Shown here in pieces: positions 12,001 to 48,000 of a DNA stretch of 64,000 nucleotides. The position numbers are program-made. The stretch covers positions 18,662,001 to 18,726,000 of the forward strand of contig OX597842.1 of the NCBI GenBank assembly GCA_951406725.2. The letters are read 5' to 3'. Within the stretch, counting starts at the first letter, position 1; the number at the start of each line of letters is the position of its first letter. This DNA is from Octopus vulgaris (lineage: Eukaryota).

Positions 12001-15000
12001 TATATATATATATATATATTTATATATATGTATATATACATATATATATATATGTATGTATGTATGAATGTATGTATATATGTATGTATGTATGTGAATA
12101 TATATATATATATATATATTTATTTATTTATTTATTCAAATGTGTATATGTGTGTGTGTAGTTTGAAGGTGCGTGGCCAAGTAGTGGTTGTGCCGCACTC
12201 AGTAATCGCTCAAAAGTCTATAGTTTCGATGTGTCACACGATCTAAAATCCCACACCATAATTGAAACAAAAAAACTTCCTTACCTACGAAACCAGACCT
12301 GTCACCCCTTTATGGTCATTAATTTCCTAGTATTATCATCATGCCTTTTCTTTAGTTCTAGTTCTTCTCTTCCTGGATTAAAGTAATGAGAAATAATATA
12401 TAATATTTCATCCCTAATTTCTTGTGTATAATTTCCTTTCAATTTTTGATTTATCTGACAGAAATCTATCCAAAAATCAGATCTCGAATACTGGAAAAGG
12501 ATTCATCAAAAATCTTCCCGAATTAAAAGAGATGTAAGTTGGATACGCGTTGCTGACACCATTACTTTCTATTGGGTCAATTTTTGATGAGGCAGCTCCC
12601 TACTATATTATAGCAGACAGCTTCAGAGATAAGATGAACCCTATAAATAAGTACACAAATCATAAAACTACACTTAACAATAAACCTAGGAAAATAATAT
12701 GCGTATCCCACTTTTTGCTTAAATGTGAAAACTTGCATAGGCAATAAATTCTTGCCATTCTTATATAAATATTTGCCCCTCATTTAAGAAATTATATAGC
12801 AAGCAAATCGTATTTTCAAAGGTGGTGGAAAGTAAGAACACTTCAACATCTTTTTATTAACGACTGAAGAATAACTATATCATAACTGTTAGAAGCGCAA
12901 GCAGACACATTTCGTGAGAATTAAAGACAGACGGAGATTTTAAAGGAATGGAACAAAGTAGGGAAAAATAAGAGGAGGAGTAGATGAAAAAGTATATTGT
13001 TTCTCTTTATTTTCATAAATAAAAGAAGTACAAAAAATCGCATTATATATTAGAGGATCCAATGTATTTCTAAATAATTTGTTTGCCAACATTTTTCTCC
13101 GTCCCTTTTATTATCTAACATTATCTCCTTATATGTGTCTGGAAGGGTGGGCAAATGTGTCTCACATTCACTAATGTCTGTGGCTACATAAGCGTTTACT
13201 CTTAGTGCAAAAGTGAACGGTGGTGAACTTGGCGAATCATTAGAGCTCTGGACGAATTTCTTAGCAGTATTTCACATACTGATAATTGCTGAGTTCAAAC
13301 TCTGCAGAGGTCGACTTTGCCTTTCATCATTTTGGTATTGATAAACTTTAAGTACCAGTTACGTACAGGAGTCACTCCCAACGACTGAGCTCTCGCCCCA
13401 ACAAAATGTCAAGCCTTGTGCCTATAGTAGAAAGGATTATTACGTAAGTGAGCGCATATTTATGTATCTGTGTTTGAGTATGTATATATTCCTTCACTTT
13501 TATCCATTGTCATTTTGTTTTGGGTACAAAAGACTTAAATGATGATAAATCCTTTCTCTTTTTTACTTTTCATTTAGGAAACGTCTCCCATCAATTATCA
13601 CCATGTAATTTCTTCTCTTCTAGTTCTTGATTGTCTCTTCCGGCATTTCATAAATTAGACGTAATATTTAATATTTCATCCCAAATTTCTTGCGTACTAA
13701 TTCCTTTCAATTCTCTTTTATCTTAAAGTGATCTATCGAATAATAAAATCTCAGAGATTGAACCCAGATTCCTTGAACATGTACCTGAGTTACAAAAGCT
13801 GTAAGTTTGCTGTGTTTGGCTGATACTATTTATTTGATATTTCTAAATACTGTATGCCTTTCCATAGTTTTCTTCGCCCATTTCCTAAATTCAAAAAACT
13901 TTATCCCACTTTACAGAGGAATGTTTCAACAAAATCTTGAAACATGAAATATTTCTAAGAAACAATTGGTGTTTTACCGAAAAAGGTTTAGTAAGATATT
14001 GAGCCTTGAAAATTGAGAAGAGGGATTTAAAATATAATTAGCATTTTATTGCAGATTTTGGAATGCTTATCTCAACAGCAAACAAATCGTATATTCCAAG
14101 GGGGTGAGAAATAAGACCACCGCAACCCCTTTTTATTAACAAATGAAGAATAACTCCTTCGTATCTTTTAGTAGAAACATTTAGTGAGAATTAAGGACGG
14201 ACGGAGAATTTAAAAGAATGGAACAGATAAGAGAAAAATAAGAGGAGGAGTAGAGGAGGGAAAATGGGGGGAGGAATAGAGGATAAAGACGACACATGTG
14301 TAAGTCCGGATGAAATGATAAAGGGTACTTCGAATTGGAATGATGGAAGAAGGTGAACGAGGAAATGTGGATGAGAAAATGAAGGAAGAAGAGACACAAG
14401 GTAAGAATAACAGAGTCAGGAATCATTAAATTTAGGCACAACTGGGAAGAAGAATATTTATCTGAGTTTATCTTTCCTTTACACTCCACCGGCTCGTTCC
14501 CCATAACATCAAAGAAAAGCTGCCATGTTCTTTTGTTGACTGCGGTGTTTCCACTCAAATTCTTGATCACAGAATCTGAAGGACTACACTCTACCACTGT
14601 CAGACAATACACCAAATCTGGATACATCAGAGAATATGACAGTGACACAATATACTAATGGCCTCTTCACCATCTCACTGGTGTAAACTTTATTTCACTT
14701 GATGTTGTCTGGTCGAAGAAGTAGCTTCCTTCTTGCTGCTCTGCTATAGTAACCAAGTTTGAGGAGATACCTGACAACGTCTCTGGGATTGACACTAATT
14801 TGTTCTGCTATGTCAGAGTCCTTGCAACGGGGATTATATTCTAAGCTTCTCTTAAGAAAGAGAAGGTTCCTGTGAAAGGGCCCTGATTGATCTGGACGAG
14901 GTAATGTGGACTCTTTCCCACTCTGGTGAAGAGCACAGTGTATTGCACAATCGCTGCTTTGCAATTTTGCGCTATGTCCAACTTCTGAAGGACACACAAT

Positions 15001-45000: not shown

Positions 45001-48000
45001 CACAGTAAACATGAGCATAGATTCTGTAAGTATTGGCAAAAGAGAAGTCTAGGAAGTATTTGACTGGAGAAATTAGATATTTTAAAAATTGTTTCAGTCA
45101 TTTGACTGCGGCCATGCTGGAGCACTGCCTTTAGTCGAGCAACTCGACCCCGGGACTTATTCTTTGTAAGCCCAGTACTTATTCTATCGGTCTCTTTTGC
45201 CGAACCGCTAAGTTTACTCTTTTACTTGTTTCAGTCATTTGACTATGGTCATGCTGGAGCACCACCTTTAATCGAGCAACTCGGTCTCTTTTGCCGAACC
45301 GCTAAGTGATGGGGACATAAACACACCAGCATCGGTTTTCAAGCGATGTTGGGGGGGGGACACACACAAACACACACACACACACACACACATTTATATA
45401 TATATATATACATATATACGACGGGCTTCTTTCAGTTTCCGTCTACCAAATCCTCTCACAAGGCTTTAGTCGGCCCGAGGCTATAGTAGAAGACACTTGC
45501 CCAAGGTACCACGCAGTGAAGCTGAACCCTGAACCATGTGGTTGGCAAACAAGCTACTTACCACACAGCCGCTCCTGCGCCTCTTTATTGACTTATCCGA
45601 ATTACAACTTATATCTGTTTCTTTCTTTCAGAAATTTGAGCAGAAACCAAATACAAAAGTATGAGGATGACACTTTCTTATTCCTTCCCAGCGTAAAGGA
45701 GATGTATGTACAACAAATGTCTTTATTTCTTGGAAAACTAAAACATTTTGTAAATCTCATATCATAAACAGAGAACATCAAAATCCCAATTGCTTAATAC
45801 AGTTGACAGTAAATAGCGATGAGTTTGTTTAAATTTTTATAGGTCAAAACAATTATTTCCATGTATGTGTTTAGTCATTGTAAAGTCTGCTTTTAAATAG
45901 AATGAGGGTTGATATATCTAATTTCATGCACTACAACAGTACACGCAAGACACAGGGGTAGTAATTTCAGTGGCCTACATACGTATGTGTGTATGTGCAT
46001 GTGCCTGTATATATAATATATTTTATATACGTGTGTATACATACATACATATATATATCCATTTATTCAAAGAAATTCTAACTCTGTCTGTTAGCAATAT
46101 AGCAACCGTTCAGTTTTCCACTAGAAACCATTTCCCTTTTTGTTGTCATTAACACCTAGAAAGAAAGAGCATAAATGCCGTAACTTCTATACACTCAGTG
46201 AAATAATATAATCCTTCGTGACGTATATTTGCCATTTAAATATGGCTAACCCCTAAGCGTGGATGCTACTGTAGTTTGTAGCCCCAGGAGGACACCTCCT
46301 CCAGCTGGCTATAGACACACTTTCTGTGCCGTAAGGACACCTCCTCCAGCTGGCTTTAGACACACTTTCTGTGCCCTAAGAACACCTCCTCCAGCTGGCT
46401 ATAGACACACTTTCTGTGCCCGCTCCTAGAAAGGGAACAGAAAGTGTGTCTAAAGCCAGCTGGAGGAGGTGTCCTCCTGGGGCTACAAACTATATTAGCA
46501 TCCACCCTTAGGGGTTAGCCATATTTAAATGGCAAATATACATCACGATGTGTTGCAGCTACTGTTTATAACTCGCTCTAAGATTTAATATAATCCTTGT
46601 TCTTGTGAAATCCAGCAAGAGTTTCTTTCTTGATCTGAAGAGAATCCAGTATTAAAGTTCTCTTTATAATTCCAGCGACCTCAGCGGTAATAACATGATG
46701 TGTGCTTGTCACCTGCCGGCCGTAGTATATTATATGAACAGTACATGCAGCAGAACTGTGGAATTCCTGGGGGAGTGTCATTCAGATTTAGGCAATAAAC
46801 GACCCATAATGCAATATTCGCAATGTGAAAGTTAGTAAAATTTTCCTCATTTTTGTTCTTTTATTTTTTTACTTTGCTGCTCAAAAATGTCAGAGAACTA
46901 TTTATAGAGCAAGAACGAGGCGGTTGGATGATATACAGGGTCTCAGGTGGTCACGCTTGGAAATCCGCTTGGAAAGTGTTATGATGGTTGCTTCTGACAG
47001 GACACTATGAAGGAACTTCCTGTGATATAATTTAAAAGATATTCCAAGGTTGTTTTTTTTAAGGGAGCTTACCCTACATCAATATTTGCATCACATTGAA
47101 TTGTTTACCTTCATTTGGGTAATTCCAGGATTTTCCCATCTTCATGAAAGCGAGATAAACCTGGAAAACAGGAAGTAGCTTTCATGCTTTTCTTAGTTGA
47201 ATTTGTAACAAAACTGAAACATATCCGAACGAACATAAAAGCAGTTTTAATTGTTAATTACATTTATATATCTTTATATATAAAAGTGAGGTTGTGTGCT
47301 GTCTGTCTCCTACGATTTAGATTCCTAACTACTCCCACATTTTGCGGTGCAGTTTAACCAACAGCGGGTATCTTATAGTCGTGATTCATATCGAGCCCTT
47401 CTGGGTATTAGCGCGCGTCTACGATGAGTCTACGATTAAAAAAAAATTTACCATCATTTTTTCCCATTTTTTTATGCATTTTTTTGCTATTATATAAGTA
47501 ACTCTCTAAAAATGCTTATATAGTTATTTCCCTTACAAACCCGAGCAACGCCGGGCGATACTGCTAGTCTAGTATATATTTTCGTTACAATACTAACACG
47601 TATGCATCACAAAGTAAATGCTTCCTCTTGTTGCCATACATTACACCTGTGGTTTTCAACCAGGGTTCCGCGGAACCTTAGGGTTCCATCAGTACGGTTC
47701 AGGGGTTCCGCAAGAAGTTACAAAACTGCTAAAATCGACAGTAATTTTTAATTCTCCTGTTCAGATATGTGTGCATAAGACTATTAAATTATTGCACAGG
47801 GGTTCCTCGAACCAGTGAAATGTTTTCTTGGGGTTCCGCTCCAGCAAAAAGGTTGAAAAGCACTGCATTACACTATTTGGCCCCTAAATATGGATATTAT
47901 TTTATATTCTGTAGATTACTCGTTATTTAAAGAGAATTTGCAATGTCAGACATGTTCAGGGATGATGTGCAATAATTCACAAGTGACAAGCTGTCCAGGA

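What the first reader, a model, noticed from the sequence alone, without database searches (positions are those of the whole stretch)
12462..45703. Array of 15 interchangeable single-LRR cassette exons: candidate combinatorially variable LRR receptor
Seen: fifteen exons of exactly 72 nt, each one 24-aa LRR, all phase 2/2 with intact AG/GT sites and no stops, between one LRRNT and one LRRCT exon. Each ends in ct, tt or at, so no pairwise junction can shift frame or create a stop. Known: one-LRR-per-exon phase-2 structure also occurs in constitutively spliced genes (LGRs, Slit); exon- or cassette-based receptor diversification is known for arthropod Dscam and lamprey VLRs. Inference: this young, near-identical array could yield receptors with variable LRR number or content through exon skipping, or vary between individuals through unequal crossover, giving a possible cephalopod immune or chemosensory diversification system.
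Basis: partly seen in the sequence, partly recalled or inferred. Interest (0 to 1): 0.9.

Follow-up and report, generated by a model that had tools for sequence, protein, structure and literature searches.

The report
Octopus adhesion receptor LRR exon array
Fifteen 72-base exons, each coding one leucine-rich repeat, build the outer binding arm of an octopus-specific adhesion G-protein-coupled receptor gene; the array grew by recent exon duplication, and whether its exons are mixed and matched remains untested.

Summary
Fifteen + strand exons of exactly 72 nt each encode one 24-residue LRR. All are phase 2/2 with AG/GT sites, and they lie between a signal-peptide/LRRNT exon and an LRRCT exon. 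All 256 donor-acceptor combinations give Leu, Ile or Phe and never a stop.

The gene is not an unknown receptor. Its exons match, residue for residue, an NCBI protein named 'adhesion G-protein coupled receptor G6-like [Octopus vulgaris]'. That protein carries GPS and 7tm_2 domains and belongs to a published octopus-specific adhesion-GPCR expansion (PMC6408891). The database model includes all 15 exons in one product.

Only eight exons are young. They form about 2.5 tandem copies of a three-exon unit, 95-97% identical.

No Dscam-like docking/selector pairing was found.

Two results keep exon skipping open:
- Database isoforms of two paralogous loci differ by whole 24-residue LRR units.
- A 23-nt intronic element sits 59-60 nt upstream of 13 of 15 exons and is better conserved than the exons.

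Transcripts could not be examined. The combinatorial-diversity reading is therefore untested: neither supported nor excluded.

The parts
7323..7501 (+). First coding exon: signal peptide, LRRNT cysteine cluster and start of LRR1; ends in phase 2 (TT|gtaagt)
   Evidence: Sequence read. Pfam LRRNT E 5.8e-4, 19.8 bits, below the 25.8 cut-off. Matches the N-termini of 16 of 35 octopus paralogs, E 2.7e-11 to 5e-3. Not used by the NCBI model.
10991..11079 (+). First exon of the NCBI model P0001, without a signal peptide; doubtful
   Evidence: Mapped. Matches no paralog. Lies in a repeat with three more copies, 92.6-95.8% identical, in downstream introns.
12462..12533 (+). LRR exon E1 (N-type, young unit 1)
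13729..13800 (+). LRR exon E2 (D-type, young unit 1)
18062..18133 (+). LRR exon E3 (D'-type, young unit 1)
18992..19063 (+). LRR exon E4 (N-type, young unit 2)
20258..20329 (+). LRR exon E5 (D-type, young unit 2)
23424..23495 (+). LRR exon E6 (D'-type, young unit 2)
24342..24413 (+). LRR exon E7 (N-type, young unit 3)
26312..26383 (+). LRR exon E8 (D-type, young unit 3)
28524..28595 (+). LRR exon E9 (older D'-like)
30715..30786 (+). LRR exon E10
36398..36469 (+). LRR exon E11 (older N-type)
42039..42110 (+). LRR exon E12
42915..42986 (+). LRR exon E13
44038..44109 (+). LRR exon E14
45632..45703 (+). LRR exon E15, the last LRR before the cap. The NCBI model cuts it at an internal donor after 45658.
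   Evidence: The full exon matches the last LRR of 20 of 35 paralogs; only P0001 is truncated.
46676..46830 (+). LRRCT exon (phase 2 in, phase 1 out)
   Evidence: 100% identical to P0001 residues 376-426. Matches 30 of 35 paralogs. No Pfam hit.
47915..48006 (+). Exon: first part of a Cys-rich domain after the LRRCT
50049..50232 (+). Exon: rest of the Cys-rich domain, tentatively Ly6/uPAR-like
   Evidence: Pfam UPAR_LY6_2 E 0.0065, 17.1 bits, below the 31.5 cut-off.
51501..51598 (+). Downstream coding exon of the same gene
56543..56618 (+). Downstream coding exon
59644..59758 (+). Downstream coding exon
60853..60989 (+). Last exon of the gene inside the window. The GPS motif and the 7TM domain lie beyond base 64000.
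   Evidence: GPS at residues 891-935 and 7tm_2 at 951-1186 of P0001.
12325..18854 (+). Young tandem unit 1 (E1-E3)
   Evidence: Self-BLAST blocks 95-97% identical to units 2 and 3
18855..24204 (+). Young tandem unit 2 (E4-E6)
24205..27064 (+). Young tandem unit 3, partial (E7, E8), broken by a roughly 700-nt insertion at 24492-25192
12402..12424 (+). Conserved intronic 23-mer before E1 (1 mismatch)
13670..13692 (+). Conserved intronic 23-mer before E2 (0 mismatches)
18003..18025 (+). Conserved intronic 23-mer before E3 (0)
18932..18954 (+). Conserved intronic 23-mer before E4 (1)
20199..20221 (+). Conserved intronic 23-mer before E5 (1)
23365..23387 (+). Conserved intronic 23-mer before E6 (0)
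24282..24304 (+). Conserved intronic 23-mer before E7 (1)
26253..26275 (+). Conserved intronic 23-mer before E8 (0)
28464..28486 (+). Conserved intronic 23-mer before E9 (0)
30656..30678 (+). Degenerate copy of the 23-mer before E10 (4 mismatches)
36338..36360 (+). Conserved intronic 23-mer before E11 (2)
41980..42002 (+). Conserved intronic 23-mer before E12 (1)
42856..42878 (+). Conserved intronic 23-mer before E13 (0)
43979..44001 (+). Conserved intronic 23-mer before E14 (2)

Best explanation
The region is the 5' half of an Octopus vulgaris adhesion GPCR gene from the octopus-specific 'ADGRG6-like' expansion.

Shown: the first exon gives a signal peptide and LRRNT cap, fifteen 72-nt phase-2 exons give one 24-residue LRR each, and the next exon gives the LRRCT cap. 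A Cys-rich domain follows in the window. The GPS motif and 7TM domain lie beyond the window end.

Shown: the array lengthened by tandem duplication of exon-plus-intron units, most recently about 2.5 copies of a three-exon unit. A conserved 23-nt intronic element sits at a fixed distance before almost every internal LRR exon.

Inferred: together these exons build one LRR arc of about 16 repeats that serves as the ligand-binding arm of the receptor. The intron splits the first Leu/Ile codon of each repeat, so any duplication, loss or skipping stays in frame; this is a by-product of the design, not a dedicated diversity device. The main product includes all 15 exons. The intronic element acts in recognition or regulation of these short exons.
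For: - Gene identity. The LRRCT exon hits P0001 (NCBI, O. vulgaris, 1238 aa) at 100% identity, E 3.2e-27. Twenty-three blocks of P0001 map colinearly and exactly onto the window, and all 15 LRR exons are among them.
- Domains. P0001 has LRR_8 (E 5.6e-83), GPS (8.9e-13) and 7tm_2 (1.6e-34).
- Family. Thirty-five further octopus or octopus-like proteins match the non-LRR part at 38-59% identity, against 20-39% for hits from other animals. The distance from LRRNT to LRRCT differs widely among paralogs, for example 31 to 121 in P0004 and 31 to 554 in P0027. The GAIN/7TM part of paralog P0004 is closest to solved ADGRG2 (E 3.8e-73) and ADGRG6 (4.8e-66).
- Literature. PMC6408891 describes an octopus-specific adhesion-GPCR expansion with LRRs in 5 of 22 sequences (passages).
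- Duplication. Tandem blocks are 95-97% identical.
- Splice sites. 14 of 15 donors are GTAAGT.
- Long-term constraint. Older exon pairs have pN below pS, for example 0.119 against 0.384 for E2/E13.
- Intronic element. Present with at most 2 mismatches before 13 of 15 exons and nowhere else in 64 kb on either strand. It is 92.4% identical over 84 older pairs, against 67.9% at third codon positions.
Against: - No transcript data were available, so constitutive inclusion rests on a predicted database model.
- That model is itself imperfect: its first exon is doubtful and its E15 is truncated.
- Database isoforms of two paralogous loci differ by exactly one or three LRR units. Skipping may therefore be common in the family.
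- The young exon copies show pN 0.052 (20/383) against pS 0.040 (4/99.7) over 7 non-independent pairs. They are not visibly under purifying selection, and some may contribute little.
- A highly conserved intronic element next to each exon is also what regulated cassette exons would show.
Confidence: 0.7

Rival explanations
1. Regulated cassette splicing. Individual LRR exons are skipped in different cells, giving receptors with different repeat number and content. The conserved intronic 23-mer would be the control site.
For: - Every pairwise junction is in frame and codes Leu, Ile or Phe.
- P0033 and P0032 have 0 mismatches and one 72-residue gap, equal to three LRRs.
- P0018 and P0025 have 0 mismatches; P0018 has one extra 24-residue LRR and one extra 89-residue Cys-rich domain.
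- P0024 and P0025 differ at 4 residues, 3 of them inside one LRR unit.
- The intronic element is more conserved than any codon position of the exons.
- In mouse, 72% of the adhesion GPCRs examined have splice variants that change N-terminal domain composition (PMC6667449, passages).
Against: - P0001 carries no isoform label, and its 90% cluster has one member.
- Splice sites are near consensus.
- The isoforms are predicted proteins of other loci. Near-identical tandem exons invite misplaced short-read junctions (my inference).
- No transcript of this locus was seen.
Confidence: 0.2
2. Germline copy-number variation. The young three-exon units still misalign at meiosis, so individuals or sister species carry different numbers of LRR exons, while splicing stays constitutive.
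For: Three tandem copies at 95-97% identity are a substrate for unequal crossover and a record of it. The span from LRRNT to LRRCT differs widely among paralogs.
Against: Only one assembly was seen. No second individual or species could be compared. In one search the best other hits to the non-LRR part were only 57% identical, so no orthologue was available for counting exons.
Confidence: 0.3
3. The young triplication is an assembly artefact, such as haplotypes or collapsed reads laid in tandem.
For: Highly similar tandem blocks are a known failure mode of assemblers (general knowledge). The only independent record, P0001, matches the window exactly and so probably derives from the same assembly.
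Against: There are three copies, not two. They differ in structure: the 1.5-kb repeat occurs twice in unit 1, and unit 3 carries a roughly 700-nt insertion. They also differ by 3-5% in sequence.
Confidence: 0.05
4. A dedicated diversity mechanism: mutually exclusive splicing of the Dscam type, or somatic cassette assembly of the lamprey VLR type.
For: An array of similar cassettes, each preceded by a conserved intronic element.
Against: - No 12-mer of the first or last intron has its reverse complement in more than 3 of the other 15 introns.
- The best RNA duplex of the element with any window stretch is -26.2 kcal/mol. Ten shuffled elements gave -22.2 to -27.1.
- The element is unpaired in a local fold whose z-score is -1.3.
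- The germline gene is already complete and in frame, with canonical splice sites on every cassette.
Confidence: 0.02

Closest known systems
Octopus-specific adhesion GPCR expansion ('group 3' of Ritschard et al. 2019, PMC6408891)
   Same: GPS plus adhesion-type 7TM. [quoted passage not shown] Clustered genes: seven hits share P0001's contig.
   Different: The paper's passages mention no exon structure of the LRR part. 'Splic' occurs 0 times in its text. This gene's placement in group 3 was not tested by a tree. The paper's supplementary tables could not be read.
LGR4/5/6 and glycoprotein-hormone receptors
   Same: An LRR ectodomain on a 7TM receptor, with naturally occurring variants that lack single exons of the LRR-containing ectodomain (LGR5 without exon 5 or exon 8; PMC3203099, passages). 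That these genes have one LRR per roughly 72-nt exon and phase-2 introns is recalled, not tested.
   Different: LGRs are rhodopsin-class receptors without GAIN/GPS. Here the protein matches 7tm_2 and GPS, and its relative P0004 is closest to ADGRG2/G6.
ADGRE5/CD97 and EMR2 EGF-domain isoforms
   Same: An adhesion GPCR whose tandem N-terminal modules vary in number between splice isoforms (cited in PMC6667449, passages). This is the best model for how LRR-number variation would work if it occurs.
   Different: The modules are EGF domains, not LRRs. Their splicing is shown experimentally; here it is not.
Ectocarpus ROCO 72-nt LRR exons and Tetrahymena 90-bp phase-2 LRR exon arrays
   Same: One repeat per exon, exons of identical length, a split junction codon, and growth by exon duplication or shuffling. 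The Ectocarpus authors raised the same diversity idea (PMC3341825; PMC6564038; passages).
   Different: Those are protist or algal, mostly cytoplasmic or uncharacterised proteins. Ectocarpus has inactivated and inverted intronic LRR exons, and none is present here.
Drosophila Dscam1 and lamprey VLR
   Same: A tandem array of similar cassettes coding a recognition surface.
   Different: No docking/selector pairing. The germline gene is complete, and every cassette has canonical splice sites.

Membership tests
Adhesion GPCR (class B2) | GPS/GAIN autoproteolysis motif before the 7TM | tested here: met
   Pfam GPS E 8.9e-13 at residues 891-935 of P0001, the database protein whose first 660 residues map exactly onto the window. 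The motif itself lies outside the window.
Adhesion GPCR (class B2) | Secretin-type 7TM domain | tested here: met
   Pfam 7tm_2 E 1.6e-34 at residues 951-1186 of P0001. Paralog P0004 matches solved ADGRG2 at E 3.8e-73.
Extracellular capped LRR domain (LRRNT-LRR-LRRCT) | Tandem LxxLxLxxNxL repeats of about 24 residues | tested here: met
   L2, S3, N5 and I7 are invariant in all 15 exons. Pfam LRR_8 E 5.6e-83 on P0001.
Extracellular capped LRR domain (LRRNT-LRR-LRRCT) | Cysteine-rich N- and C-terminal caps | tested here: inconclusive
   LRRNT scores 19.8 bits, below the 25.8 cut-off, and the LRRCT exon has no Pfam hit. Both exons align to the caps of paralogs: 16 and 30 of 35 respectively.
Octopus 'group 3' adhesion GPCR expansion (PMC6408891) | Membership of the octopus-only clade in a 7TM tree | not tested
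   Only similarity ranks were seen: octopus hits are 38-59% identical, others 20-39%. No tree was built, and the paper's gene lists are in supplements that were closed.
Dscam-type mutually exclusive exon cluster | A docking site complementary to a selector next to each variable exon | tested here: not met
   12-mer complement test. The duplex scan was no better than shuffles. A docking site outside the window is not excluded.
VLR-type somatic cassette assembly | An incomplete germline gene flanked by cassettes that lack splice sites | tested here: not met
   The gene is complete and in frame, and each cassette has AG/GT sites.
Alternatively spliced cassette-exon array | Transcripts that differ in exon content | not testable with these tools
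   No transcript collection was available. The only indirect evidence is isoform-labelled proteins of paralogous loci that differ by whole LRR units.

The most novel reading that the evidence does not exclude
Each internal LRR exon of this octopus-specific adhesion GPCR, and of its paralogs, is an individually regulated cassette under the control of the conserved upstream 23-nt intronic element. Neurons or sucker cells would then display receptors with different LRR number and content. Alongside the expanded protocadherins, this would give octopus a second combinatorial cell-surface recognition code.
Probability: 0.12. Interest if true: 0.85.

Novelty: new member of a known kind. Interest (0 to 1): 0.45.

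Why it matters
The gene family is one of the few large octopus-specific receptor expansions. Published expression is in the arm nerve cord, suckers and skin (PMC6408891, passages), yet its ligands and function are unknown.

This window shows how its binding arm evolves: by adding whole LRR exons in frame. It also corrects the database model at both ends of the LRR region.

The conserved intronic element gives a concrete handle, a 23-nt site to mutate, for testing whether LRR content is regulated. If it is, the family becomes a candidate recognition code in the octopus peripheral nervous system. If not, it is a clean example of ordinary exon-duplication growth of an LRR domain.

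Tried and rejected
- Homologue search with exon 1 alone, longer proteins: no candidate. This is weak evidence, because the NCBI model lacks this exon.
- The listing of cluster members for P0001: database switched off. The accession and sibling isoforms of P0001 stayed unknown.
- First LRR motif scan: it required the whole LxxLxLxxN inside one exon and missed every exon. It was replaced by the scan.
- Flank divergence: inflated, because the flank windows ran past homology boundaries. 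I used the BLAST block identities instead.
- Regex LRR counts: they include false hits in the 7TM region. Only the cap positions were used.
- Docking/selector search: negative.
- Local RNA structure around the intronic element: not significant, z -1.3.
- YCAY (Nova-type motif, recalled) enrichment upstream of the exons: 3-9 per 170 nt against 3.9 +/- 1.95 in shuffles, not convincing.
- Literature search for 'one repeat per exon' / 'phase 2': mostly irrelevant hits, but it led to the Tetrahymena paper.
- Pfam on four intronic ORFs (39486-40256, 40257-41312, 24642-25367, 6302-6727): no family.
- Not done: structure prediction, complex prediction, the representative-library search and the ESM Atlas search. 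None could answer the open question, which is transcript content.
Paralogous loci could therefore not be checked for the intronic element.

Full report
**The observation**

The window has no N and is AT-rich. I scanned for AG + 72 nt + GT with an open frame in phase 2. The + strand gave 59 candidates, of which 16 carry the LRR-like pattern x[LIVFM]xxNx[LIVFM]. The same scan gave 0 on the - strand and 0-2 in each of 20 shuffles.

A nucleotide profile of the 15 exons finds exactly these 15 in the window and no decayed copies. A six-frame motif scan found no LRR exon of another length. The exon ends are AT, TT or CT as reported. All 256 combinations of the 16 donors and 16 acceptors give Leu (203), Ile (32) or Phe (21), never a stop. 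The first exon (7323-7501) and the LRRCT exon (46676-46830) are as described.

**What the gene is**

I searched the model exon by exon and left out any search with joined exons.

- Exon 1 alone found nothing.
- The LRRCT exon alone hit one protein at 100% identity: P0001, 1238 aa, named by NCBI 'adhesion G-protein coupled receptor G6-like [Octopus vulgaris]'.
- P0001 maps colinearly and exactly onto the window in 23 blocks. These include all 15 LRR exons, the LRRCT exon and six further exons up to 60989.
- P0001 has GPS and 7tm_2 domains, which lie beyond the window end.

The non-LRR part of P0001 finds 35 further octopus or octopus-like proteins at 38-59% identity. Seven of them are on the same 34.6-Mb contig. 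Hits from other animals are 20-39% identical. The GAIN/7TM part of paralog P0004 is closest to solved ADGRG2 and ADGRG6.

Ritschard et al. 2019 (PMC6408891; passages read) describe an octopus-specific adhesion-GPCR expansion. It has LRRs in 5 of 22 sequences, one Death domain, co-localised genes, signs of positive selection, and expression in axial nerve cord, suckers and skin. This gene very probably belongs there, although I built no tree.

**Corrections to the database model**

The NCBI first exon (10991-11079) matches none and lies in a 1.5-kb repeat that has three more copies in downstream introns.

The NCBI model also cuts E15 at an internal GT after 45658. The full 72-nt E15 matches the conserved last LRR of 20 of 35 paralogs.

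**Age and origin of the array**

Self-comparison shows about 2.5 tandem copies of a three-exon unit: 12325-18854, 18855-24204, and 24205 to about 27064. Their blocks are 95-97% identical. They differ by a second copy of the 1.5-kb repeat in unit 1 and by a roughly 700-nt insertion in unit 3. So eight exons (E1-E8) are young.

E9-E15 share only about 250-620-nt blocks around the exon with other copies, mostly at 75-88% identity (E13 and E14 share 93.7%).

- Among the young copies, pN is 0.052 (20/383) and pS is 0.040 (4/99.7). These come from 7 non-independent pairs, so there is no visible purifying selection yet.
- Older pairs show pN below pS, for example 0.119 against 0.384.

This is the pattern of ordinary tandem exon duplication by unequal crossover.

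**Is there a diversity mechanism?**

- Splice sites are near consensus (14 of 15 donors are GTAAGT), and introns are 804-5611 nt.
- No 12-mer of the first or last intron has its complement in more than 3 of the other 15 introns.
- The in-frame junction property follows from the intron splitting the first Leu/Ile codon of each repeat. The same design is in print for Ectocarpus 72-nt LRR exons (PMC3341825, passages) and Tetrahymena 90-bp phase-2 LRR exons (PMC6564038, passages).

**Two findings that keep skipping open**

The first concerns isoform-labelled database proteins of paralogous loci, which differ by whole LRR units.

- P0033 and P0032 have 0 mismatches and one 72-residue gap.
- P0018 and P0025 have 0 mismatches; P0018 has one extra 24-residue LRR and one extra 89-residue Cys-rich domain.
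- P0024 and P0025 differ at 4 residues, 3 of them in one LRR unit.

These are predicted proteins. Near-identical exons can produce false junctions, so this is a lead and not proof.

The second is an intronic element. Aligning 180 nt upstream of each exon revealed a block that is better conserved than the exons.

- The core AATATTTCATCCCAAATTTCTTG lies at -59/-60 to -37 before 13 of 15 exons with at most 2 mismatches. E10 has 4 mismatches and E15 has no copy.
- It occurs nowhere else in the window on either strand.
- I compared the 84 pairs among E1-E14, leaving out E15 and the 7 young pairs. The core is 92.4% identical, against 68.5%, 81.5% and 67.9% at codon positions 1, 2 and 3.
- It is unpaired in a local fold with z -1.3.
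- It has no better duplex partner in the window than shuffled versions do.

I infer a single-stranded splicing signal. It may be needed simply to define these short exons, or it may regulate them.

**Verdict**

The region is the LRR-coding part of a known, annotated octopus adhesion GPCR gene, built and enlarged in a known way. The combinatorial-receptor idea is neither supported nor excluded.

Searches of the literature found no paper on the exon structure or splicing of these LRR arrays in octopus.

Left unchecked:
- transcripts of the locus;
- other individuals and species;
- the paralogous loci;
- the cluster members of P0001;
- the supplements of PMC6408891.

Noticed in passing
window 45632-45703 (internal GT after 45658): The NCBI protein uses a donor inside E15 that removes 15 residues of the last LRR. 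Both donors keep the frame, so this could be a real alternative 5' splice site or a model error.
   Followed up: partly
window 10802-12322, 14084-15418, 15574-17093, 20830-22343: A 1.5-kb repeat in four copies, 93-94% identical to the first copy, lies in the first intron and in introns of the young units. The NCBI model takes its start codon from the first copy.
   Followed up: partly
window 9663-10115 (+): Fragment of a mariner-type transposase in the first intron (Pfam Transposase_1, E 4.6e-21).
   Followed up: partly
window 32971-33966 (-): A 331-aa open frame with a reverse-transcriptase zinc-binding motif (zf-RVT, E 9e-6, just under the cut-off), in the 5.6-kb intron between E10 and E11.
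   Followed up: partly
window 39486-41312 (-): Two adjacent long open frames (256 and 351 aa) with no Pfam family, in the intron between E11 and E12. Probably an uncharacterised mobile element.
   Followed up: partly
window 24492-25192, with a similar stretch at 58204-58547: A roughly 700-nt insertion interrupts young unit 3. It overlaps a 241-aa - strand open frame (24642-25367) with no Pfam hit. The stretch 24487-24839 is 88% identical to 58204-58547.
   Followed up: partly
window 37593-38002, 48829-49308, 54192-54651, 56827-57242, 59849-60316: A dispersed element of about 450 nt joined to a microsatellite, in at least five copies 87-89% identical. There are also 138-nt tandem repeats at 57104-57656.
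   Followed up: no
window 2320-2930, 29950-30480, 34400-34950, 59240-59560: Very long trinucleotide-type simple repeats, several hundred bases each, inside and around the gene.
   Followed up: no
proteins P0018 and P0025 (paralogous locus, not in the window): Beside one LRR unit, an 89-residue Cys-rich (Ly6/uPAR-like) domain is present in one isoform and absent from the other. In this family, domain-number variation may not be limited to LRRs.
   Followed up: partly
window 47915-48006 and 50049-50232: The domain after the LRRCT has a CC...C-N cysteine pattern and a weak UPAR_LY6_2 match (E 0.0065, below the cut-off). An LRR plus Ly6-like plus GAIN/7TM architecture is unusual for adhesion GPCRs (that judgement is recalled).
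   Followed up: partly
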